Made by a program: the position numbers and the translations under genes
Source: a virus
Lineage: Duplodnaviria > Caudoviricetes
IMG/VR virus record: IMGVR_UViG_3300027898_000001
Length of the DNA: 64,000 bases
Strand: one strand, 5' to 3'
Notes under the pieces: model-generated
Told to the model about the DNA's origin: nothing
What the model saw: only the letters and a program-made list of their open reading frames with translations
Database searches by the model: none
Part shown: in pieces, positions 9,483-45,084 of the stretch
How positions within the stretch are numbered: position 1 is the stretch's first letter
How the letters are laid out: every line of letters starts with the position of its first letter

Positions 9483-10262
9483 TTAGTAAATATAAGGATA
9501 TATAACACGAACACGATCAGATAATGTTTTTAAATAAGTATCGTCATGGTTAGCAGAATATTGTAAAGTGTTCATGGTCCATAACGTCTTAAATACATGA
9601 GCAGCCGAACCGGATTGACAAGCATACTTCCACGCAGGAGAATTAGCTGCGAATACATTACTATGTACATAACCAGGAACTTTCTTCAACACATTAAAGT
9701 CGGTCATACCTATTTGAATATAAAACTTACCGTAACGATCTACACCAGTAACGCAGCACGTATCTGCCTGAGCATAACCATTAGAAAACTGAGGCACAAT
9801 TCTATTACCATCAACATCCTCATATAGAATATTTTGAACAATGTTATCCGCAACTGCCTCTGTTATATCGCATTTAATAATCTTACAAAGTTGGCGAATA
9901 GCTCGTTTGAATTGTGCGCGCTCTGGGCAATATTTGTGTTCATAGTATGGACGAATGATAGCATAAAGCTCGTCAACATATTCCTTTATTATCTTAGCGC
10001 TGCGATCTTGTGGAGATAAATCCACATATTTGGTTAGTAAGTTATCAATACTTGGAAGATCATAAAAACTCATGTCTTTAATCCAAATAGGATAACTTCT
10101 AGCAAAGTCTGTAGTGAATGCACCACTGCCGAATCCAAAAGCACTTAGAATATCTGTAGTCGATTCACCTGGACGGAAATCGCTTTCAGGATATGCAAAT
10201 AGATAAGCCGCACCGTACGGACCACTGTCAAAATACGCGAATGAAATATCTACGTTTTGCAT
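9483..10262 (-). CDS. Hypothetical protein
   Basis: 259-aa ORF in operon. Confidence 0.65.
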   Translation of the reverse strand: MQNVDISFAYFDSGPYGAAYLFAYPESDFRPGESTTDILSAFGFGSGAFTTDFARSYPIWIKDMSFYDLPSIDNLLTKYVDLSPQDRSAKIIKEYVDELYAIIRPYYEHKYCPERAQFKRAIRQLCKIIKCDITEAVADNIVQNILYEDVDGNRIVPQFSNGYAQADTCCVTGVDRYGKFYIQIGMTDFNVLKKVPGYVHSNVFAANSPAWKYACQSGSAAHVFKTLWTMNTLQYSANHDDTYLKTLSDRVRVIYPYIY

Positions 10263-10265
10263 ATA

Positions 10266-10724
10266 TTACCTATCGCGTCTTTGTGGATTATTACGATTTG
10301 GGTTATTGTTTTGTTGAACATTCGTAACTTCTTGTGAAGAAGCTGCTTCTGTTTCTACTGTTGGAGGAGATTCAATCACATTAGGAACAACTGGTGCCTG
10401 TATAACAGGTAATTCTACTGCGGCAACTTTAACAGGCTCGACAGGTTTAATACCAGACAACTCTGCGATAACCGTTTCAGACAGATTGACACAGGTAATT
10501 AGACGTGAGGGTAATTCGTAACTCATACCTTTAGGCAATACATCTTTATCACCAAATGGTAGTCCATTATTTGGATATGCGGGTGCAAAATCTCTGGTGC
10601 TTTCAAATGCTTTTTTAGCAGCTATAGAGGTAGGGCCCCAAATACCATCCAACTTACCTTTATAGTAATTCAAAAACTTTAGGACCAATTGTTGACGCAA
10701 CAGGTGCTCTGATTTAATTTGCAT
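10266..10724 (-). CDS. Peptidoglycan-binding (PG_binding_1-like) domain protein with low-complexity tail
   Basis: QQLVLKFLNYYKGKLDGIWGPTSIAAKKAFE fits the Q..L...Y..DG..G..T..A...FQ pattern. Confidence 0.65.
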   Translation of the reverse strand: MQIKSEHLLRQQLVLKFLNYYKGKLDGIWGPTSIAAKKAFESTRDFAPAYPNNGLPFGDKDVLPKGMSYELPSRLITCVNLSETVIAELSGIKPVEPVKVAAVELPVIQAPVVPNVIESPPTVETEAASSQEVTNVQQNNNPNRNNPQRRDR

Positions 10725-11370
10725 AGTTTGTGACTCCTAAAGTGTGTTGCACATTGCATAGCTTGCGCATGTTTTTGTATACAGAGAATGATTCGATTAT
10801 AGCCATTAAAGGATCTATAATCATACTAGTATAAAATTCTATTGGTGAAGCGCCGGAATTAATGCGCAATACTGAGGTAAATCCATTTGAATTAATGCTA
10901 AGATTTTCTAGCTTAAGATAATCCAAATTGTGATTTCTATAAATACTCTGCACTTGCATGTAGCATTGAGAAGCAGGCGCATTGGAATCACACAATCTTT
11001 GTAATAGCTCAGATTGTCTGCAATGAAGATACGCACACACGCTCGATATATTTAAACGTGGTGCGTATCTGGATAATATAAGTGCATCATTATACCGACA
11101 CACTATGACAACAACCTTTGTAGCGTCTTGGCACTCAATATCTAAATGCTTCTTTGATATTCCATATTTATTTCCATCATCAGACGGGAACATTATGTAA
11201 TCATCCGCATTTTCTGAGAATACATCACCATCTACCTGACGATAACCAGTGCGCTCCGTAACACATGTTGTATCTATATCTAATAACACAACATCTGGCA
11301 ACTTTTCCACGATCTTAGTTGCTAGTGTTCGCTTGCCTGTGAAGGAGGCGCCAGTTATGACGAGTAACAT
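10714..11370 (-). CDS. Guanylate kinase-like P-loop nucleotide kinase
   Basis: N-terminal GASFTGKRT; TT..ER..DG..F..GNKYG resembles the GMK NMP-binding domain. Confidence 0.65.
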   Translation of the reverse strand: MLLVITGASFTGKRTLATKIVEKLPDVVLLDIDTTCVTERTGYRQVDGDVFSENADDYIMFPSDDGNKYGISKKHLDIECQDATKVVVIVCRYNDALILSRYAPRLNISSVCAYLHCRQSELLQRLCDSNAPASQCYMQVQSIYRNHNLDYLKLENLSINSNGFTSVLRINSGASPIEFYTSMIIDPLMAIIESFSVYKNMRKLCNVQHTLGVTNYAN

Positions 11371-33902: not shown

Positions 33903-34109
33903 TTATGCTATACAGCACCATTTCAAATCAATTAAACCTGCGTGAAAGCTATCTAAATCCGTAACACCAAGATCATTGGAATGTACTTGCAGATAACTAC
34001 CGTTACGTGTAATAGCAACACGCTCTGGAACATAATTATTTTCGCTACAAGTTATCTCATACAAGCCTACCTTAGTTGGTTGCTTTTTCGTAAACTTTAA
34101 GTCGACCAT
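33903..34109 (-). CDS. Hypothetical protein
   Basis: 68-aa ORF in operon. Confidence 0.5.
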   Translation of the reverse strand: MVDLKFTKKQPTKVGLYEITCSENNYVPERVAITRNGSYLQVHSNDLGVTDLDSFHAGLIDLKWCCIA

Positions 34110-34831
34110 TTCATTACATCTCCTATTTCTGTGTACGGTGTGTACATATTGTACAGTAGAGTATACACAATTGCTAAGAAATCAGGATCGGAGGGATCAT
34201 ACACCAAATCTGTATTTACTACAGATAATACAAGGTCACCTTTAGTACCAACATTAGGACGATAATCAGTATTGGCATATTGTCGTATTACACGTATATC
34301 TGCTTTTATTTTATTTACGCGATCTGTACTATCGGTGTGACGAACAGTGGACACTAAACCTTGCACCAATAAACTAACGTACTGCACTTCACGCAAGTAA
34401 CAGAATTCTGGTTTGAAAATATCAGTAGGTAATGTACTAGCTACCATCAGACACTGAGGATGTTTGTAGAAGCGCAGCTCGCCATCACGATATTCTAATT
34501 GATTGAATATTTTATATGATTGGATATTTTTAGTAAGGAACAGTAGACCGAGATGTTCAGGTACTTTAATCACGGTACCTTGTGTAGCTGTAGGTAGAAC
34601 TTGCAATATAGCAGCTTCTAGTATCTCCTGATCATCTAAAGACAAATCAGGAATAATGAAATATAATCCACTGTGTAGAATCTGAACTCTAACAGGGTCA
34701 TAGAGAAACTTAACTTTGTTTGGACACAACAAAGAAGTAGATTGGAGAGGTGCTGAATTTGAAATTAACGTATTGAACAGCAGTAGGCCATTAAACATTT
34801 TTGTTAGAAAAGACTGATCCACCGCTGTCAT
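34097..34831 (-). CDS. Hypothetical protein
   Basis: 244-aa ORF, SD AAGG. Confidence 0.6.
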   Translation of the reverse strand: MTAVDQSFLTKMFNGLLLFNTLISNSAPLQSTSLLCPNKVKFLYDPVRVQILHSGLYFIIPDLSLDDQEILEAAILQVLPTATQGTVIKVPEHLGLLFLTKNIQSYKIFNQLEYRDGELRFYKHPQCLMVASTLPTDIFKPEFCYLREVQYVSLLVQGLVSTVRHTDSTDRVNKIKADIRVIRQYANTDYRPNVGTKGDLVLSVVNTDLVYDPSDPDFLAIVYTLLYNMYTPYTEIGDVMKWST

Positions 34832-34844
34832 ACAATATACCTTA

Positions 34845-35828
34845 TTAGTTGTCGTTCAATGTTCTTTTACAGTGTTTGAATGTGTATTGCAGACCCTTTT
34901 CCACATCTTTCGGCAACTTTTTACCAGTAGCATGGTAAGCCACAGCTTCACAAAAGAATTCCTGATAACTCTTTAAACTATAAGTGGAAATATCAGGACG
35001 TTCCTCTGTTAATGCTGTAGTTGATGGCCACATATCTGCCAAAGTTTCCGTATCTTGCAACAACATCATATCAATATCATCGCGTGTCATGCGATGATTT
35101 CTACGAAAATAACCAATTACTTCTTTTAGTACTAAACTATCTGTATCATCTGCCATTTCTTTTTGAAAAGCACTAAGACCACCTTCGTACTCTACAACAG
35201 ACTTCCAAAGAAGGTCAAGTTGCTCACGTTTAATCTTAGATAGTTTTAAACGCTTCTGATACAACTTCAACCACTTAGCGCGTATTGGTTTAGGCACACA
35301 GCGATTAAACAGACCATGTGCGAATTCATGTGCAATCATGTACTCATTGTATTTAGTATCAGAAAATGCTTTAGGCATCAAGTGCATTTCATCTTGAATA
35401 TCTGTACCCTTAACTTTTGTTATATAGCAACCTACCATCTTACCTGCAGGTGGGTACAAATATATAGCATACAATGGTAAGAATGCAGTTGTAACATTCT
35501 TTTCATACCAATCAAACACTGTCTTCATAGCACCACTGAGTGCTTTCATATCTTTCTTTGGAATTTCAGTACAAATATGAATAGGACCAAAGCGTTTACT
35601 TTCCACAGTCTTAATAAATGGGCGTACCTTAACTTTGCAGTATGTGTCTGGTTTAGGGTTCTGCCCTAGGTTACACAACACCTGTTCTGGATCATACTCA
35701 ATAGTTTCAGGCTCATCAGCATGTAATGTACTTTCAAGAGTAGCACGAAAGCCACCAGCGAGTTTAACACATAGTTTGGCACGACCGCGATGGCGCGCAA
35801 TAAAATAATCACCAGATTCCAATTTCAT
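34845..35828 (-). CDS. Putative zincin-type metallopeptidase
   Basis: AHEFAHG (HExxH) with downstream QEFFCEAVAY third ligand. Confidence 0.6.
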   Translation of the reverse strand: MKLESGDYFIARHRGRAKLCVKLAGGFRATLESTLHADEPETIEYDPEQVLCNLGQNPKPDTYCKVKVRPFIKTVESKRFGPIHICTEIPKKDMKALSGAMKTVFDWYEKNVTTAFLPLYAIYLYPPAGKMVGCYITKVKGTDIQDEMHLMPKAFSDTKYNEYMIAHEFAHGLFNRCVPKPIRAKWLKLYQKRLKLSKIKREQLDLLWKSVVEYEGGLSAFQKEMADDTDSLVLKEVIGYFRRNHRMTRDDIDMMLLQDTETLADMWPSTTALTEERPDISTYSLKSYQEFFCEAVAYHATGKKLPKDVEKGLQYTFKHCKRTLNDN

Positions 35829-36723: not shown

Positions 36724-37143
36724 TTACTGCCACAATTTCTTGCCATGCAAATCTGTAGTTCTACGCAACACAACTTTGTGCTTTCCAGTAAAATCTATAG
36801 CTGCAACAGTTCTAGCGCCTTTAAACTTAGTAGCTACTTTACTGTCAATAGAATAGCCAATAGGACTCTTTGACTTATCTAAAGCTAAATACCCAAACGA
36901 TTTAGACTTTGCTAAACCTTCTAATATGGTAAGAATTTCATCTGGGTAACATACTGCACGTTCAGCAGATGAAAGTGAATAGAATATAGTATTCACTCCA
37001 CCTTTACCTACTGTGAACGTATAATCCCCAGGTATTTTAATAAGCAGCTGCCATTGATGGCACTCGCACTGTACCTTTGTCAGCTGGTCATCTTCTTTTA
37101 ACAACAACTTAACCTTATTTAAAATATTCTTGTAAGGATTCAT
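36724..37143 (-). CDS. Hypothetical protein (likely start ATG 37143, MNPYK)
   Basis: ORF between the glycosyltransferase and sigma; SD AGGT. Confidence 0.55.
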   Translation of the reverse strand: MNPYKNILNKVKLLLKEDDQLTKVQCECHQWQLLIKIPGDYTFTVGKGGVNTIFYSLSSAERAVCYPDEILTILEGLAKSKSFGYLALDKSKSPIGYSIDSKVATKFKGARTVAAIDFTGKHKVVLRRTTDLHGKKLWQ

Positions 37144-37150
37144 TTTATAC

Positions 37151-38035
37151 CTACTTCTTTTTGAGCGATGCTGAAATAATCCTAGGGTAAGCGTAATCAC
37201 CCTGAATTAAATGGTGAACACGGCCTACAGCACGTTGATACATAACACGGGTAGATGAGGGTGAAGCAATGAGAGTATAGAAACTCTTTTGATAAGTGCC
37301 CGCATCTTTATAAATATCTGTCAAACCACCAACAGCTTTTTGCGTAGTAGTTTGTTCTAACTGAACTAGACAGTTTGTTATTACAACACCACCAGCTTGA
37401 GCTACTTGAACACCCATCGTAGAGTCTTCATTGATAGTGCCGTTAAACTGAATTGGGTTAGAGACTTTCAAGAAAAACACATTCATTGCTTTACGCAAGG
37501 GTCTGAAATTGTTTTTATTGATATTACCATTCCAACCACCTACGAAATCGCCACCTTGTGCAAATGCAAGAACATCTAAGTTGGCAGTTTCTAGGAATTT
37601 CAAATGCGCGGTAATCAGTCTATCCATATCAGTGACTTTAGTGCGCTTGTAAAAGCCTGTCTGATCTACCGATAGATAGAACACGGAGTAATCGTCATCC
37701 ATCACAACGATATAGTCCAAGCCCATTTTCTTTGCAACGTCGTACACAGCGTTACGTGCATAGACAACTGCATTAAATTTAACATCGTTGGTCATGAGGT
37801 CAAACTTGTTTACATACGCTTTCTTATCAAACGTCTTTACAGAATCGCCGTACAATTTTTTGTACTGTTTCAACGTAGGGTCTTGTGTATCGCATAGCAA
37901 ATAAAGATCGCCTGTGTACCCAGCTTTCTTCAATGTGGCAATTGTTATTTGCTGTTCAGGACGCTTATGTGTGAGAATAAATATGGCACACTTCTTTATA
38001 CTCGGCTTTGATTTGACTGCATTATTTTTGGCCAT
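37151..38035 (-). CDS. GT-A fold glycosyltransferase, GREB1-like/TET-associated type
   Basis: IFILTHKRP, YARNAVY, IVVMDDD, RKAMNVFF, GTINED, QKAVGGLTDIY. Confidence 0.75.
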   Translation of the reverse strand: MAKNNAVKSKPSIKKCAIFILTHKRPEQQITIATLKKAGYTGDLYLLCDTQDPTLKQYKKLYGDSVKTFDKKAYVNKFDLMTNDVKFNAVVYARNAVYDVAKKMGLDYIVVMDDDYSVFYLSVDQTGFYKRTKVTDMDRLITAHLKFLETANLDVLAFAQGGDFVGGWNGNINKNNFRPLRKAMNVFFLKVSNPIQFNGTINEDSTMGVQVAQAGGVVITNCLVQLEQTTTQKAVGGLTDIYKDAGTYQKSFYTLIASPSSTRVMYQRAVGRVHHLIQGDYAYPRIISASLKKK

Positions 38036-38852
38036 TTTTTACCATATCCATAATTTCGTCAGTTAGTTTGAGATAGCCATGCTCAATAGCTTTCTTGTGG
38101 TCAACTATTACAAGCGCACAATCTTCCATAAGTGACTGCACATTCTTAGGCGCATGAGCGTAGTATTCTGCAATGTTGGCAAAGTTAAACTTAGTGTGAC
38201 GTTCGGCTGCGGACATAAGGAACTCTTGAACGTCTTTAGGCAATCGGGCTTCTGCAATCGACTCTTTCAGTTCATTAGCCTTAGTCTTGTCGTAAATATC
38301 CGCAAGTTTAGGTTTCTTACCAGTCACTTCATACACAGGTGAAGCTAACTTGCGCACATATTTTTGTTCTGGTTCGGCTTCAATTGAGCGTCTAATAAGA
38401 TTCTGTACAGCACCATCAGAGAATCCTATTGTTTCAATATCAAATTCTTTTTTATCTAATTCGGCTAACAGCTTACCAAGCTTCTGATTATCAAATTCAC
38501 CACCGTGGTTGTTCGCCGCAATATTAGCCAACTTCTCAGTACGCAAATCCCAATCTACGATACGCAATGATACTTTAAATTTAGCACCGTTTGGACGCAT
38601 TACAAGTATATAACCTTGTTCTACAGTACCAAAATCGTCAACATGCTTTTCAGTAACGATTTTTGTTTTCTTATCGCCGAGAGTTTTTAGGCGCTGGTGC
38701 CCTGCAACAATCGTATTAGTACGTTTGTTGATAACAACACATGCCAGGTCGCCAAAAGTTCCAATTGAGCGATCTAGCGCTTGTAATTGTGCGCTAGATA
38801 TTTTTCTTGGATTATACTTGGCTTGATTGAAGTCTTTTAGTTTCAACATCAT
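38022..38852 (-). CDS. ParB/Sulfiredoxin N-terminal domain protein with conserved C-terminal domain
   Basis: YNPRKI, IVAGHQRL, LANIAANN; C-terminal AAERHTKFNFANIAEYYAHA. Confidence 0.8.
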   Translation of the reverse strand: MMLKLKDFNQAKYNPRKISSAQLQALDRSIGTFGDLACVVINKRTNTIVAGHQRLKTLGDKKTKIVTEKHVDDFGTVEQGYILVMRPNGAKFKVSLRIVDWDLRTEKLANIAANNHGGEFDNQKLGKLLAELDKKEFDIETIGFSDGAVQNLIRRSIEAEPEQKYVRKLASPVYEVTGKKPKLADIYDKTKANELKESIAEARLPKDVQEFLMSAAERHTKFNFANIAEYYAHAPKNVQSLMEDCALVIVDHKKAIEHGYLKLTDEIMDMVKNGQK

Positions 38853-39616
38853 TTAGTTCTCTTTTTCTTAATAGGCATTTGGGTGAATTGTGCCCATACG
38901 CGGCCATGATATAAACGAGGTCTACCGTTCTTATCTATCTTTACAGTGAAGCCTGGCCAGTCTTTAGCTAATTGCAAGAATCGAACATGACGACCTTGAC
39001 CTGCCAATGCTAAATCTGTAAGACCACCTTTCTGCTGCAAATGCGGAACTGTATCAATCAACTGTCTGTTGGCAATCATGGTGGTGCCACCAGAACTCAA
39101 CACTTGCAGAGCAAAGTCCGCATCATCAACAGTGCCTTTATTCCACTTAGCCTTCACATCGTTCTTTAATAAAATGCAAGAGCACGGGTTCTTGTTAATA
39201 CTAAAGTCAGTTGTTTGTGAGAATGCAAAGCTAGTATAGCGATGTGCGATCACAGATAAGTTCTTGTACGAATCAAATACCTTCTCCACTGCTAGTAAAG
39301 ATTTTTCGGCATGTATCTTCACGTTCTTACTATCTTGGCGCACCATGAAATGACGAATATCATCATCCATTTGCCAGTGTGCATCTTCATCCCGCGAGCG
39401 AGATAGTTTAAGCGCACTGTTTCTAGCAAACGGTAAACCAGCATCATCCTTTTTCAACTTATGCAAGTTAGCCTTATCGTAATACTTAGCATACTCTTTG
39501 TAGTCTTGCGGCTCTACTATGATGGTAAAATCAATACCACGCTTTTGCAAAGTTTGTGCTGTTAGACAATGACTGGCTCTGCCTTTTGATACAATGTAGA
39601 TAGGATACTTATTCAT
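38849..39616 (-). CDS. GT-A fold glycosyltransferase, GREB1-like/TET-associated type (start ATG 39616)
   Basis: YPIYIVSKGR, IIVEPQD, FARN, WQMDDD, GTVDDADF, QQKGGLTD. Confidence 0.78.
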   Translation of the reverse strand: MNKYPIYIVSKGRASHCLTAQTLQKRGIDFTIIVEPQDYKEYAKYYDKANLHKLKKDDAGLPFARNSALKLSRSRDEDAHWQMDDDIRHFMVRQDSKNVKIHAEKSLLAVEKVFDSYKNLSVIAHRYTSFAFSQTTDFSINKNPCSCILLKNDVKAKWNKGTVDDADFALQVLSSGGTTMIANRQLIDTVPHLQQKGGLTDLALAGQGRHVRFLQLAKDWPGFTVKIDKNGRPRLYHGRVWAQFTQMPIKKKRTK

Positions 39617-40805
39617 CGGAGTCCACCGTATTACGATTGTTCCAAATAGATTTACATGGAATTTTAGATACGTCACAACGATCTTTGTATTTCGTGGCAA
39701 TATCTAATACTTCTGATAGTAAACCTTGTTCTAGTGTTATCGCATTGAGACCCAGCTGCTTGAATTTCTCACGTACAACATGCAATTCGTTTTCGGCAGC
39801 TTCATTTCTAGGATTCTCAACAAAGTCTACGGTAACGCCAGTTATGACGCTAATCATCATAGCGAGGTCACGCACACGGTGTGTTTCTGTCATTTGATTG
39901 CGAATGACAACTTTATCGCCACGCGCTGGCGGATTCTCAATAGCTAACTGAATACATTTAACGGTATCACGGATATGAATGAACGCGCGAGTTTGACCGC
40001 CTGTACCATGAACTGTGAGTGGATGACCTAAGGCTGCTTGCATCAAGAATCGGTTCAATACAGTACCATAATCACCATCATAATCAAAACGATTGATTAA
40101 TGTTTCGTGCATTTCTGTTTCAGGAGTTTGTGTACCCCAAACTATACCTTGGTGTAGGTCTGTGATACGCAATCTATCATTCTTCACATAATACTGGAAC
40201 ATCAACTGATCCATAGTCTTAGTGAGGTGATATACGCTGCCAGGATTCGTTGGGTACAAACATTCAACTTCAACAGGGTTACCATCCATTCCGTTCATAG
40301 TTACTGTGGTGTAACCTTCTGGAATAGCAACACCAGCAGTACCATATCCGTAAACACCCATAGTGCCCAGATGCACGATATGGATGTCAGGATCAATATC
40401 ACAAACCGCTACCAATAAGTTGTGTGTAGCATTAGTGTTGTTGTTGACTGTGTAGCGTTTTGTTTGACTAGATTTCATTGAAAATGGCGCGGCGCGTTGT
40501 TCCGCAAAGTGTACAACGGCAAGAACATTTCTACTTATTAGATTAGATAATGAACTCGCATGTTCCGCAATGTCGATATTGTAGAAGCCTATAACTTTAC
40601 CAGTCAATTCTTCCCACTTCGCAATACGCTGTTTCATAGTAGAAATAGGAGTTAAAGAGTCACAACCTAGTGTTTCATCAATCGCACGGCGCGAGAAGTT
40701 GTCGATAATAGTAACATCATATCCTATATTGGATAGATGTAAAGCGGTTGGCCAACCACAGAAGCCGTCACCGCCGAGTACGATAACATGGTTCTTATTA
40801 GTCAT
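39609..40805 (-). CDS. sqdB: UDP-sulfoquinovose synthase
   Basis: GGDGFCGWPTALHL, SLTPI, HFAEQRAAPFSM, HLGTMGVYG, YHLTK, TDLHQGIVWG, RFDYDGDYGTVLNRF, GGQTRAFIHI, EAAENEL. Confidence 0.93.
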   Translation of the reverse strand: MTNKNHVIVLGGDGFCGWPTALHLSNIGYDVTIIDNFSRRAIDETLGCDSLTPISTMKQRIAKWEELTGKVIGFYNIDIAEHASSLSNLISRNVLAVVHFAEQRAAPFSMKSSQTKRYTVNNNTNATHNLLVAVCDIDPDIHIVHLGTMGVYGYGTAGVAIPEGYTTVTMNGMDGNPVEVECLYPTNPGSVYHLTKTMDQLMFQYYVKNDRLRITDLHQGIVWGTQTPETEMHETLINRFDYDGDYGTVLNRFLMQAALGHPLTVHGTGGQTRAFIHIRDTVKCIQLAIENPPARGDKVVIRNQMTETHRVRDLAMMISVITGVTVDFVENPRNEAAENELHVVREKFKQLGLNAITLEQGLLSEVLDIATKYKDRCDVSKIPCKSIWNNRNTVDSDE

Positions 40806-40838
40806 AATGTATCCTCTAAAATTTTCGGTATTTTTATA

Positions 40839-40847
40839 TATTTACAG
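40839..40847 (-). promoter_or_regulatory. CTGTAAATA promoter-like motif heading the sqdB operon
   Basis: + strand tatttacag, 34 nt upstream of the sqdB ATG. Confidence 0.65.
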
Positions 40848-43301: not shown

Positions 43302-44336
43302 ATGTCAGAAGATGCGCGTCAAATAATAAGTGAGGAATTGAATAATTCTCCTGGTCCTAAAAAGATGGCAGGTAGTTCACTTCTCATACAATGTCCTTTC
43401 CATGATGAAAACACACCATCATGTGGTGTCAACTTAAATCAAGATAGTGGTATTCCACTTGGCTGGTTTCATTGCTTTGGTTGTGGTGCTAAAGGTCCGT
43501 GGAATCGCTTAGCAAAACAAATGGGATTGACCCAGTTTAAGAAGTGGCAATTAGATTTCAAAGGTAATGGTGCGACTAGAGAAGAAAAACGTAGAACACC
43601 AGAAGCTAGTATGAAAAGTACAAATCAACTTGAGCGTATGTATAAGACGTTGAAAACAAAGGAGTTGATTGAATGGCCTACTAGAATGGACTGGAGAGGT
43701 TATGATGGCACACTACTTAGAAAGCTAGGCGCATTAATGTTTAGTGAAGAAGTGTGGAATAAACAAGAACGTGCTAGAGAAGCAGAGGTAATGCTGTTCT
43801 TCCCAATTTATGTAAACGAAAAGTTTGTAGGTGGTGTTAAAGCATTCATGGAGAAACAAAAAGACGGTCTAAGTTACTTGAACACGCCAGGCAGTTGGGT
43901 AAGAACAAGTGGTTTACTGGGATATGATTATATTCGCAAAGTAATAGCTAATGTAAGAGAAAAGAAAAAGAGACAATACACATCATTAGTATTAGTTGAA
44001 GGCCCGCGTGACGTAGCACGACTTCTGTTAAACAGAGTGCCAGCAATGGCTATTTTGGGTATCGAGAACTTTAGTGAAAAGAAGTTAATGAAAATACTGG
44101 CGGTAAATAGCAATATAAAAAGATTGTATGTAATGTCGGATAATGACAAAGCTGGTAAGCGTATGTATAAGATTATCAAGGAGATGGCTGCGAATTACAT
44201 CCCTGTAAAACGATTGAAATTGCCTGAAGAGTATGACAAGAAAGGAAAGCTAATTAAAATGGATCCAGACGATGCACCGCAAGAACTAATTGATACTGTA
44301 AGAGAACTTATAGAGTCGGAGATGGTGAAAGTCTAG
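43302..44336 (+). CDS. dnaG: DnaG-type DNA primase (likely start 43302)
   Basis: CPFHDENTPS..HCFGC zinc finger; TOPRIM LVEGPRD, DNDKAG; SD GAGG. Confidence 0.92.
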   Translation: MSEDARQIISEELNNSPGPKKMAGSSLLIQCPFHDENTPSCGVNLNQDSGIPLGWFHCFGCGAKGPWNRLAKQMGLTQFKKWQLDFKGNGATREEKRRTPEASMKSTNQLERMYKTLKTKELIEWPTRMDWRGYDGTLLRKLGALMFSEEVWNKQERAREAEVMLFFPIYVNEKFVGGVKAFMEKQKDGLSYLNTPGSWVRTSGLLGYDYIRKVIANVREKKKRQYTSLVLVEGPRDVARLLLNRVPAMAILGIENFSEKKLMKILAVNSNIKRLYVMSDNDKAGKRMYKIIKEMAANYIPVKRLKLPEEYDKKGKLIKMDPDDAPQELIDTVRELIESEMVKV

Positions 44337-45084
44337 CATTAGCGGATAAGTAACCATTCTGAAACAAAAGGTCAGTATCAAACACTCCAAACCCAGAAGA
44401 TTTAACATCTAGGAATAATATATTTGTTTTATCATCTACCTCATTCAAATACGCATCTGTATTATCTACTGCGTAGGTTAACATAGATATAACTTTCGGT
44501 AAATAACTCAAGCCTTTATATCCACTAACTGTAGGCGCACTACGTACTCTAATACCGTACGTAATCGCATTGGATGGTGGCATCACATTTACAGGTGTAG
44601 GGTTCAAGACACCACCATCTACTAGTAACTTGTTTAAATATTTTACAGGCGTATACAAAATTGGTATAGATAAAGAAGCACGTACAGCTAACCAAATAGG
44701 TGCATTTGGAGAAGTTTCTTTACTGAATACAAATGGTTCGCCTGATATAACGTCAGACGATGTTATATAAATAGGTATAGGAGAATCTGCAAACGTCTTA
44801 GTACCAAATGTTCGTTTCAATTCACCTTCAATGTGTGTTCCAAAGCAAAAACTACTTTGAAATATTGCAGTTGGATTAAATGAAATGGCTTTAGAAGGGT
44901 CGAGAGATTTAAGGATAAGAAGTGCTTTATCAATAGGATAGAATGCTAACAAAGCTGCAATAATAGCACCTCCAGATGTACCAGACACTGCGGTTAAAGT
45001 GCTACTATCTTTTTCTATGATACTTTGATAAGCACCTAAGTGCATAGCATACAATAAACCACTACCAGAAAATGCCACTCTCAT
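44308..45084 (-). CDS. Patatin-like phospholipase
   Basis: FSGSG..H oxyanion loop, GTSGG nucleophile, RASLSIP, DGG. Confidence 0.9.
   Translation of the reverse strand: MRVAFSGSGLLYAMHLGAYQSIIEKDSSTLTAVSGTSGGAIIAALLAFYPIDKALLILKSLDPSKAISFNPTAIFQSSFCFGTHIEGELKRTFGTKTFADSPIPIYITSSDVISGEPFVFSKETSPNAPIWLAVRASLSIPILYTPVKYLNKLLVDGGVLNPTPVNVMPPSNAITYGIRVRSAPTVSGYKGLSYLPKVISMLTYAVDNTDAYLNEVDDKTNILFLDVKSSGFGVFDTDLLFQNGYLSANARLSPSPTL

What the first reader, a model, noticed from the sequence alone, without database searches (positions are those of the whole stretch)
37151..40847. sqdB fused into a glycosyltransferase-ParB-glycosyltransferase operon: candidate sulfoquinovose hypermodification of phage DNA
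Seen: four genes whose ends overlap (sqdB/GT 8 nt, GT/ParB ATGA, ParB/GT 14 nt) behind their own CTGTAAATA motif. SqdB has its family motifs intact. Both GTs have the GT-A pattern: an N-terminal IxIxS/TxxR, an ARN helix, a DDD and a late ED/DD. Known: SqdB/SQD1 makes UDP-sulfoquinovose from UDP-glucose and sulfite. Cells pair it with SqdD (GT8) or SqdX/SQD2 (GT4) to make sulfolipid; neither type is recognisable here. GREB1-like/TET-associated GT-A enzymes (relatives of the base-J glucosyltransferase) and ParB/Srx domains are typical of phage base-modification clusters. Inference: the phage makes a sulfosugar donor and transfers it to hydroxymethylated bases, giving anionic sulfoglycosylated DNA resistant to restriction or CRISPR. 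The second GT may extend the glycan. Alternatives are glycosylation of virion proteins or host lipid/surface. No hydroxymethyl-base source (TET/JBP, dCMP or dUMP hydroxymethylase) is recognisable in this window.
Basis: partly seen in the sequence, partly recalled or inferred. Interest (0 to 1): 0.93.

Follow-up and report, generated by a model that had tools for sequence, protein, structure and literature searches.

The report
Sulfosugar glycosylation cassette in jumbo phage
An uncultured freshwater jumbo phage carries a gene for the sulfonated sugar donor UDP-sulfoquinovose, joined to two glycosyltransferases of the DNA-modifying TAGT family and a ParB-like partner, so it probably puts a sulfonated sugar on its DNA, a modification not yet reported.

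Summary
Four minus-strand genes overlap by 8, 4 and 14 nt behind a TGTAAATA promoter-like motif:
- SqdB (E 3e-97 to plant SQD1, catalytic Thr/Tyr-His/Lys intact, 66-72% identical to bacterial SqdB)
- TAGT-1
- a ParB-fold protein
- TAGT-2

A fifth conserved 139-aa gene follows.

The linkage is conserved. Every one of the 7 members I examined from an 11-leaf viral SqdB clade has a TAGT gene directly downstream, including two predicted from the tree before I looked. None of 77 other viral SqdB loci does.

Sister phages keep TAGT-ParB-TAGT but lack sqdB, or carry a UDP-galactofuranose mutase or an rmlABCD set instead. The sugar-nucleotide gene is therefore a swappable donor supply.

ParB and TAGT-2 form an obligate pair (64 of 64 metagenomic loci). 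They are predicted to bind (ipSAE 0.83, best control 0.00).

DNA as the target is inferred, not shown. No hydroxymethyl-pyrimidine source (TET/JBP, ThyA family) lies in the 147 kb I could read, which is about 56% of the genome. The same ParB-TAGT pair also occurs in complete small phage genomes that lack any such source.

The scan noted this same stretch once before, on the same DNA.

The parts
40839..40847 (-). CTGTAAATA promoter-like motif, 34 nt upstream of the sqdB start
   Evidence: 7 of 12 TGTAAATA copies lie within 60 nt upstream, in sense, of a start codon (P about 1e-7). The same motif precedes polA, the exonuclease, the primase and gyrB.
39609..40805 (-). SqdB, UDP-sulfoquinovose synthase orthologue (398 aa)
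   Evidence: SQD1 (1i24, 1qrr) E 3e-97 over the full length, with T145/Y182/H183/K186 equivalents kept. NF041015 is the best hit at E 4.5e-97; 66-72% identity to bacterial proteins that JGI names UDP-sulfoquinovose synthase; it falls in an 11-leaf viral clade.
38849..39616 (-). TAGT-1, GT-A glycosyltransferase (255 aa) and the likely sulfoquinovosyltransferase
   Evidence: PF20691 E 3.7e-31. AF2 pLDDT 92.3. GT-A fold, top hits TarP/SpsA/ColGalT1 and GREB1. It lies directly downstream of sqdB in 7 of 7 clade members. It is fused to ParB in L004.
38022..38852 (-). ParB/Srx-fold protein of the YnaK family (276 aa), predicted partner of TAGT-2
   Evidence: phrog_620 E 6.5e-40. AF2 pLDDT 85.5; Foldseek hits ParB-CDP 6sdk, KorB and Noc at probability 1.0; invariant N14, G51, R54 and a conserved C-terminal domain; predicted complex with TAGT-2 through that C-terminal domain.
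37151..38035 (-). TAGT-2, GT-A glycosyltransferase (294 aa), the ParB-coupled enzyme
   Evidence: PF20691 E 5.2e-30; phrog_842 E 8e-51; this subtype follows the ParB gene in 64 of 64 metagenomic loci with room, and in 60 of them within 300 bp.
36724..37143 (-). Conserved 139-aa protein of unknown function (phrog_23597), the fifth cassette gene
   Evidence: phrog_23597 E 4e-12; present after TAGT-2 in L004, L094, L176, L177, L178, L179 and L180 at 49-70% identity; no fold or feature match.

Best explanation
This is a five-gene glycosylation cassette in the replication-gene region of a PaBG-like jumbo phage of about 260 kb from fresh water. SqdB converts host UDP-glucose and sulfite into UDP-sulfoquinovose. 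TAGT-2 is held on DNA by its bound ParB-fold partner and installs the first sugar. TAGT-1, the transferase that always travels with sqdB, adds sulfoquinovose, most likely onto that first sugar and possibly straight onto the base. The product would be phage DNA carrying a permanently anionic sulfonated glycan, made during or after replication and serving to evade nucleases. Shown here: the identities of the proteins, the conserved linkage, the swappable donor gene, and a predicted ParB-TAGT-2 complex. Inferred: that DNA is the acceptor, the order of the two transferases, and the biological role. Unknown: which atom of DNA is glycosylated.
For: SqdB identity. TAGT identity and GT-A/GREB1-like fold.

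Published TAGT-family and phage GT-A enzymes act on DNA bases. The T6 second glucosyltransferase is described in PMC13390438. TET-associated enzymes that add a first and then a second sugar are described in PMC8256090. Clusters where the GT needs its paired SDR sugar enzyme are described in bioRxiv 10.1101/2023.12.21.572611.

Linkage: SqdB-TAGT-ParB-TAGT-small protein recurs in L004, L176, L179 and L180, and partly in L006. These SqdBs form one clade with support 0.94, and two contexts were predicted from the tree and then confirmed. Of the 78 IMG/VR viral SqdB loci, only L009, itself a member of that clade, has a TAGT gene; the other 77 do not. Several of those sit in GT2/NeuB glycan clusters.

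Donor swapping: L094 and L095 are collinear with the window but lack sqdB. L177 has a P-loop kinase in that position. L178 has UDP-galactopyranose mutase. L004 adds an NTP_transferase. The unrelated phage G001 keeps CDO-SqdB-TAGT at one site and MTase-RmlABCD-ParB-TAGT at another.

ParB coupling: 64 of 64 loci pair this ParB with a TAGT. TAGT-1 and ParB are naturally fused in L004. The predicted ParB-TAGT-2 complex scores ipSAE 0.83 against a best of 3 controls of 0.00. That mark was reached by 58 of 80 solved complexes and 2 of 110 mismatched pairs, and the counts hold only roughly because I used my own alignments. The runs agree in at least 87% of contacts, and the partner pLDDT is at least 77. 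No solved relative of either protein was found by sequence.

Context: the cassette lies between the primase/exonuclease genes and the sigma factor, clamp loader and SbcCD genes. It shares its promoter motif with polA, the primase and gyrB.
Against: No TET/JBP (PF12851), ThyA-family (PF00303) or 2OG-FeII_Oxy_3 gene is present in the 147 kb held. No homologue of a phage TET was found near any ParB-TAGT locus. The complete genomes of Lactobacillus phage c5 and an E. coli siphophage carry ParB-TAGT without either family. A hydroxymethyl acceptor is therefore unsupported, and a non-DNA acceptor cannot be excluded. GREB1, the closest Swiss-Prot structural match, is published as a protein O-GlcNAc transferase (PMC7968844, listed). 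SqdB scores below the curated NCBIfam cut-off (325 against 575 bits). No sulfite-supply gene (PAPS reductase) lies in the contig. Residues that separate TAGT-1 of sqdB-plus phages from sqdB-minus phages are few and rest on only two minus sequences.
Confidence: 0.5

Rival explanations
1. The cassette sulfoglycosylates a protein rather than DNA. Candidates are a DNA-bound or virion protein, or ParB itself. ParB would act as an adaptor or a substrate.
For: GREB1, the eukaryotic TAGT-family member and the top Swiss-Prot structural match, is published as a protein glycosyltransferase (PMC7968844). ParB-TAGT pairs occur in complete phage genomes with no hydroxymethyl-pyrimidine source. Sulfoquinovose on proteins is known from Sulfolobus N-glycans (my own knowledge, not checked here). 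Virion glycosylation is known in mycobacteriophages (cited in PMC12619734).
Against: Every phage TAGT or GT-A enzyme tested so far acts on DNA bases. TAGT-1 relatives sit in TET-TAGT-methyltransferase clusters. The partner has a ParB NTPase fold typical of DNA clamps. The cassette is embedded in replication genes, not structural ones. In G001 a DNA methylase lies next to the module.
Confidence: 0.2
2. The cassette glycosylates DNA, but the SqdB homologue supplies a non-sulfonated sugar. It might work as a 4,6-dehydratase or epimerase, or stop at the UDP-4-keto-glucose-5-ene intermediate. The glycan would then be neutral, as in known epimerase-plus-GT clusters.
For: The protein scores below the curated equivalog cut-off. 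No sulfite-generating gene lies in the contig. Published partner SDRs in phage DNA-glycan clusters are epimerase-type enzymes.
Against: It is 66-72% identical to bacterial SqdB over the full length. It keeps His183, which sets SQD1 apart from plain epimerases (its role in SQD1 is my own knowledge). The next-best family in NCBIfam scores E 4e-12 against 4.5e-97. In phage G001 a cysteine dioxygenase, a route to sulfite, lies directly upstream of sqdB. PAPS-reductase-SqdB fusions exist among close homologues.
Confidence: 0.1
3. sqdB is an auxiliary metabolic gene. It would remodel host sulfolipid or a surface polysaccharide, and its position next to the TAGT genes would be incidental.
For: Most viral SqdB loci in IMG/VR lie in GT2/NeuB/methyltransferase glycan clusters. 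A viral sqdB has been discussed as an auxiliary metabolic gene (PMC7785012). A bacterial homologue sits in an ABC-transporter polysaccharide cluster.
Against: sqdB and TAGT-1 overlap translationally in every clade member. No SqdX/SqdD-type GT4 or GT8 and no membrane glycosyltransferase is nearby. The clade-specific linkage passed a prospective test. In sister phages other donor genes occupy the sqdB place.
Confidence: 0.07

Closest known systems
Phage post-replicative DNA glycan hypermodification clusters with a paired SDR sugar enzyme and a GT-A transferase (Pyle et al. 2024, 'subclass II'; bioRxiv 10.1101/2023.12.21.572611)
   Same: A JGT/TarP-like GT-A transferase with R...DDD...(E/D)D motifs sits next to an SDR that tailors the nucleotide sugar. 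ParB-like genes are often nearby. A second GT extends the glycan.
   Different: Those clusters contain a 5mYOX, often with a C5-methyltransferase, and none is visible here. Their products are Hex, HexNAc or HexA. Their SDRs are epimerase-type, not SqdB. The text holds no word beginning 'sulfo'.
T2/T6 gentiobiosyl-5hmC (alpha-GT plus the TAGT-family beta-glucosyl-HMC-alpha-glucosyltransferase)
   Same: Two transferases act in sequence on DNA. A TAGT-family enzyme uses a DNA-bound sugar as its acceptor (PMC13390438). Both window GTs match PHROG 842, which is named after this enzyme.
   Different: T-even phages make 5hmC before replication with a ThyA homologue, use plain UDP-glucose, and have no ParB partner or donor-synthesis gene.
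ParB-dependent phage thymine dioxygenases (O'Toole et al. 2026, PMC13229309)
   Same: A ParB-fold protein without an evident role in partition serves as the protein partner of a DNA-modifying enzyme. It co-occurs with GTs and terminases.
   Different: There ParB activates a 5mYOX. Here no 5mYOX was found, and ParB is predicted to bind the glycosyltransferase through a conserved C-terminal domain. I could not test whether the two ParB groups are the same family.
Base J synthesis in kinetoplastids (JBP1/2 plus JGT)
   Same: A GT-A enzyme of the same superfamily glycosylates a thymine-derived base in DNA.
   Different: Base J synthesis is eukaryotic, uses UDP-glucose, and needs a JBP hydroxylase.
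Sulfoquinovose pathways: SQDG (SqdB with SqdX, SQD2 or SqdD) and Sulfolobus N-glycan (Agl3 with Agl16)
   Same: The same donor-forming enzyme is used, with catalytic residues conserved.
   Different: The partner transferases there are GT4, GT8 or membrane enzymes acting on lipid or dolichol-linked glycan. Here the partners are soluble TAGT enzymes coupled to ParB.

Membership tests
UDP-sulfoquinovose synthase (SqdB/SQD1/Agl3) | Full-length extended-SDR homology to structurally solved SQD1 | tested here: met
   E 3.1e-97, residues 5-389 against 12-393 of 1i24.
UDP-sulfoquinovose synthase (SqdB/SQD1/Agl3) | Catalytic Thr145, Tyr182 and Lys186 plus His183, and the NAD-binding glycine motif | tested here: met
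   LGTMG, SVYHLTK and GGDGFCG are conserved, and invariant across 7 viral homologues.
UDP-sulfoquinovose synthase (SqdB/SQD1/Agl3) | Score above the curated NCBIfam equivalog cut-off (NF041015) | tested here: inconclusive
   it is by far the best family (E 4.5e-97; the next is 4e-12), but 325 bits is below the 575-bit cut-off. Bacterial proteins that JGI names UDP-sulfoquinovose synthase are 66-69% identical.
UDP-sulfoquinovose synthase (SqdB/SQD1/Agl3) | Converts UDP-glucose and sulfite to UDP-sulfoquinovose | not testable with these tools
   Needs an enzyme assay.
TAGT / JGT-like GT-A DNA glycosyltransferases (PF20691) | Pfam score above the gathering threshold | tested here: met
   109.1 and 105.4 bits against a cut-off of 27.5.
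TAGT / JGT-like GT-A DNA glycosyltransferases (PF20691) | GT-A fold with R...DDD...(E/D)D motifs | tested here: met
   motifs present in both GTs. TAGT-1 model pLDDT 92.3, with top hits TarP, SpsA, ColGalT1 and GREB1. TAGT-2 was not folded alone.
TAGT / JGT-like GT-A DNA glycosyltransferases (PF20691) | A co-encoded source of a hydroxylated pyrimidine (TET/JBP 5mYOX or a ThyA homologue) | tested here: inconclusive
   none in the 147 kb, but the record is only about 56% complete. An unverified first-stage note (e1-5402720) reports a TS-like ORF outside the DNA I could reach.
TAGT / JGT-like GT-A DNA glycosyltransferases (PF20691) | The acceptor is a base, or a sugar on a base, in DNA | not testable with these tools
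   Needs nucleoside LC-MS.
ParB/Srx (ParB-CTPase fold) | ParB N-terminal fold with the GxxR phosphate motif | tested here: met
   ParB-CDP 6sdk, KorB and Noc at probability 1.0. G51 and R54 are invariant in 59 homologues. Pfam gives no hit for this copy, although homologues at 66-70% identity carry PF02195.
5mYOX-activating ParB (O'Toole et al. 2026) | A cognate 5mYOX gene nearby | tested here: not met
   there is no dioxygenase-like gene in the neighbourhood or in the contig.
Sulfolipid (SQDG) operon | SqdB paired with a SqdX/SQD2 (GT4) or SqdD (GT8) transferase | tested here: not met
   the only glycosyltransferases within 10 kb are the two TAGT enzymes.

The most novel reading that the evidence does not exclude
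The ParB(YnaK-family)-TAGT heterodimer is a self-sufficient DNA glycosylation machine that needs no hydroxymethylated base. It would be guided by the ParB NTPase and would write a sugar directly on canonical DNA. Phages diversify the glycan by plugging in donor genes (SqdB, Glf, RmlABCD), and here the result is sulfonated DNA. The same uncharacterised pair sits in prophages of roughly a third of complete E. coli genomes.
Probability: 0.2. Interest if true: 0.92.

Novelty: new variant of a known kind. Interest (0 to 1): 0.8.

Why it matters
Sulfonated sugars are not among the reported natural DNA modifications. My full-text searches for sulfoquinovose together with phage DNA modification or hypermodification found nothing. 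A fixed negative charge on a bulky glycan would be a new chemical class of nucleic-acid modification. It could affect evasion of restriction enzymes and CRISPR, DNA packaging, and enzymatic DNA labelling.

The comparisons also define a modular system: a ParB-bound transferase plus interchangeable donor-supply genes. This gives a direct and cheap test, which is co-expression in E. coli followed by nucleoside LC-MS.

The work also points to an uncharacterised ParB-TAGT pair that is very common in E. coli prophages.

Tried and rejected
- **Rest of the genome.** I could not reach it. The held record is 146,824 bp of about 260 kb. Exact-protein look-up of the window's SqdB is blocked.
- **Hydroxylase among the neighbours.** ORFs 34845-35828 and 34097-34831 have no Pfam hit. 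The Atlas suggests a metallopeptidase-like fold for the first and nothing for the second. The 139-aa protein has no match.
- **Single-sequence scan of IMG/VR with SqdB.** It found nothing. The alignment-based scan was needed.
- **Nucleotide search against isolated phages.** It matched only a 134-nt ParB stretch in Vibrio phages. The ThyA of Vibrio phage phiKT1024 looks like an ordinary dUMP-specific thymidylate synthase (Cys, Asp169 and Asn177 equivalents kept), so it says nothing about this phage.
- **Donor-specificity residues in TAGT-1.** His after the GR motif looked diagnostic with 4 sqdB-plus sequences. It failed when L179 and L180 were added.
- **Sigma-70 promoter and terminator scans.** Counts were at chance level.
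- **Sequencing runs.** No RNA holder is listed. One DNA run labelled freshwater metagenome holds the whole stretch and may be its source.
- **PDB sequence searches.** They gave nothing for either TAGT or for ParB.
- **Literature on ynaK and on the ParB-CTPase fold.** Neither mentions a glycosyltransferase partner.

Full report

| Gene | Coordinates | Length |
|---|---|---|
| SqdB | 39609-40805 | 398 aa |
| TAGT-1 | 38849-39616 | 255 aa |
| ParB-like | 38022-38852 | 276 aa |
| TAGT-2 | 37151-38035 | 294 aa |

- The overlaps are 8, 4 (ATGA) and 14 nt.
- A fifth gene (36724-37143, 139 aa, phrog_23597) starts 7 nt after TAGT-2 and belongs to the unit.
- CTGTAAATA lies 34 nt upstream of sqdB.
- By count the octamer TGTAAATA is only mildly enriched (12 against 7.0 +/- 2.9).
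- Seven of the 12 copies lie within 60 nt upstream, in sense, of a start codon, including those of polA, the exonuclease, the primase and gyrB (P about 1e-7).
- The motif resembles the T4 late -10 element TATAAATA (my own knowledge).
- No terminator-like site stands out inside the block.

**The parts.**
- *SqdB.* It aligns over its full length with plant SQD1 (E 3e-97). It keeps the NAD motif and the equivalents of T145, Y182, H183 and K186. Its best NCBIfam family is UDP-sulfoquinovose synthase (E 4.5e-97, below the curated cut-off). It is 66-72% identical to thousands of bacterial SqdB proteins.
- *The two transferases.* Both exceed the Pfam TAGT threshold about four-fold and keep the R / ARN / DDD / late acidic / GG motifs. 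An AF2 model of TAGT-1 (pLDDT 92.3) is a GT-A fold. Its best solved matches include TarP and SpsA. Its best Swiss-Prot matches are the GREB1 and GREB1L glycosyltransferase domains.
- *The two subtypes.* TAGT-1 groups with enzymes of T4-like Aeromonas phages and with Nonlabens phage P12024L. In P12024L the gene lies between a TET/JBP gene and a methyltransferase. TAGT-2 groups with enzymes that follow a ParB gene just before the terminase in small siphophages.
- *The ParB-like protein.* It has no Pfam hit of its own. It matches PHROG 620. Its model (pLDDT 85.5) matches ParB-CDP, KorB and Noc at probability 1.0. The GxxR motif and a C-terminal domain are conserved in 59 homologues.

**The phage.**
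- The window comes from an IMG/VR record of 146,824 bp, judged 56% complete.
- The same proteins occur on a 260,268-bp contig.
- PolA is 55% identical to that of Pseudomonas jumbo phage PaBG.
- The only run that holds the whole stretch is labelled freshwater metagenome and may be its source.
- The cassette lies among replication and recombination genes: Cas4-like exonuclease, primase, sigma factor, clamp loader and SbcCD.

**Is the linkage conserved?** Yes.
- The same order, SqdB-TAGT-ParB-TAGT-small protein, occurs in L004, L176, L179 and L180, and partly in L006.
- In L004, TAGT-1 and ParB are one reading frame.
- Between the window and L004 the cassette proteins are 62-76% identical, against 29-48% for the flanking backbone proteins.
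- In a tree of 140 SqdB sequences the TAGT-linked ones form an 11-leaf clade (support 0.94).
- Two members of unknown context, P0030 and P0024, were then looked up, and both carry the full cassette.
- That clade also holds the SqdB of an unrelated phage (G001, locus L009). There a cysteine dioxygenase, SqdB and a TAGT-1-like gene lie in a row.
- Of 78 IMG/VR viral loci with SqdB, only L009 has a TAGT gene. Several others sit in GT2/NeuB/methyltransferase glycan clusters.
- No isolated phage in the INPHARED set has SqdB.

**The donor gene is swappable.**
- L094 and L095 are collinear with the window gene for gene, but a 70-aa ORF replaces sqdB.
- L177 has a thymidylate-kinase-like P-loop kinase in that position.
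- L178 lacks TAGT-1 and carries UDP-galactopyranose mutase after TAGT-2.
- L004 adds a sugar nucleotidyltransferase.
- G001 has a second module 140 kb from its SqdB: N6/N4 DNA methylase, RmlA/B/C/D-like genes, a ParB-like gene and TAGT.
- The constant core is therefore ParB plus TAGT-2, usually with TAGT-1 and the small protein. The variable part is a nucleotide-sugar supply gene.
- This is the pattern expected if SqdB feeds the neighbouring transferase. SqdB always travels with the TAGT-1 type, even when ParB-TAGT-2 is elsewhere in the genome, which makes TAGT-1 the likely sulfoquinovosyltransferase.

**ParB is the transferase's partner.**
- A metagenome scan with the ParB C-terminal motif returned more than 570 relatives.
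- Of the 80 loci kept, 79 contain a TAGT gene.
- All 64 loci with at least 900 bp downstream have one, and in 60 it starts within 300 bp.
- The predicted ParB-TAGT-2 complex scores ipSAE 0.83 against a best of 3 controls of 0.00. That mark was reached by 58 of 80 solved complexes and 2 of 110 mismatched pairs, and the counts hold only roughly because I used my own alignments.
- The runs agree in at least 87% of contacts, and the partner pLDDT is at least 77.
- The interface uses the conserved ParB C-terminal domain (residues 165-176 and 221-276).
- No solved homologue of either chain exists by sequence, so recall of a known complex is unlikely.
- This differs from the published role of phage ParB as activator of thymine dioxygenases (PMC13229309).

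**What is the acceptor?** This is the weak point.
- The 147 kb held contain no Tet_JBP, thymidylate-synthase-family, 2OG-FeII_Oxy_3, N6/N4 methylase, PAPS reductase or NTP_transferase gene.
- The neighbouring unknown ORFs do not look like dioxygenases.
- A phmmer search with a phage TET protein against all 6,837 ORFs of every locus fetched found only itself.
- About 44% of the genome is unseen. A first-stage note mentions a TS-like ORF there, which I could not verify.
- The ParB-TAGT pair also occurs in the complete genomes of Lactobacillus phage c5 and an E. coli siphophage, which have neither family. A hydroxymethyl-pyrimidine may therefore not be required at all.
- DNA remains the best-supported target. 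Every phage TAGT or GT-A enzyme tested so far acts on DNA. The partner has a DNA-clamp fold. The module is co-located and apparently co-regulated with replication genes.
- A protein acceptor cannot be excluded, because GREB1 is a protein glycosyltransferase.

**Verdict.**
- I put 0.9 on SqdB making UDP-sulfoquinovose.
- I put about 0.75 on one of the TAGTs, most likely TAGT-1, transferring it.
- I put about 0.65 on DNA being the target. Together these give roughly 0.5 for sulfoquinovosylated DNA.
- The architecture (SDR plus GT-A plus ParB) is a known kind (Pyle et al. 2024). The sulfosugar donor and the ParB-bound transferase are new variants.
- No paper in the library links sulfoquinovose to DNA modification.
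- The scan had noted this same stretch once before, in an overlapping window of the same genome, and on no other DNA.

Noticed in passing
L086:4202-5918 (Escherichia phage vB_EcoS-666R9) and E. coli genomes: The ParB partner family is annotated ynaK in E. coli. The ParB-plus-TAGT DNA matches 1,580 of 5,426 complete E. coli genomes (889 at 80% coverage or more). It lies just upstream of the terminase, and the GT is annotated only as a hypothetical protein. No functional study was found.
   Followed up: partly
L184:2235-8132 (G001:C1:21234-27131): The unrelated SqdB-bearing phage G001 has N6/N4 DNA methylase, RmlA-, RmlB-, RmlC- and RmlD-like genes, a ParB-like gene and a TAGT gene in a row. This suggests a rhamnose-type donor for its ParB-coupled transferase.
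   Followed up: partly
L009:6-467: A cysteine dioxygenase type I homologue (Pfam CDO_I, E 2e-5, just over the cut-off) lies directly upstream of SqdB in phage G001. It may be a phage-encoded route to sulfite.
   Followed up: no
L178:6976-8001 and 9826-10914: A sister phage lacks TAGT-1. It has a 1-kb ORF-free gap upstream of ParB and a UDP-galactopyranose mutase (GLF) after TAGT-2.
   Followed up: partly
L177:6600-7226 and 10281-10748: In another sister phage a thymidylate-kinase-like P-loop kinase precedes TAGT-1, and an Acb1 (anti-CBASS) homologue follows the cassette.
   Followed up: no
window 26000-48500 against L004: The cassette proteins are 62-76% identical between the two phages, while flanking replication proteins are 29-48% identical. 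This fits recent horizontal exchange or unusually strong constraint on the cassette.
   Followed up: partly
window 44308-45084 (-): A patatin-like phospholipase gene (Pfam E 2e-25) lies next to the primase and is conserved in L006 and L094.
   Followed up: no
window 34845-35828 (-): A 327-aa protein without a Pfam hit is conserved in L004 and L094. Its Atlas neighbours are metallopeptidase-like (ATLF, Peptidase_M90, M1), with weak scores.
   Followed up: no
proteins P0064 and P0092: Close SqdB homologues are fused to an N-terminal PAPS-reductase domain. This suggests sulfite channelling into SqdB in some organisms.
   Followed up: no
L176:14565-15476: A Tad3 (anti-Thoeris) family gene lies 5 kb downstream of the cassette in an sqdB-plus relative.
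   Followed up: no
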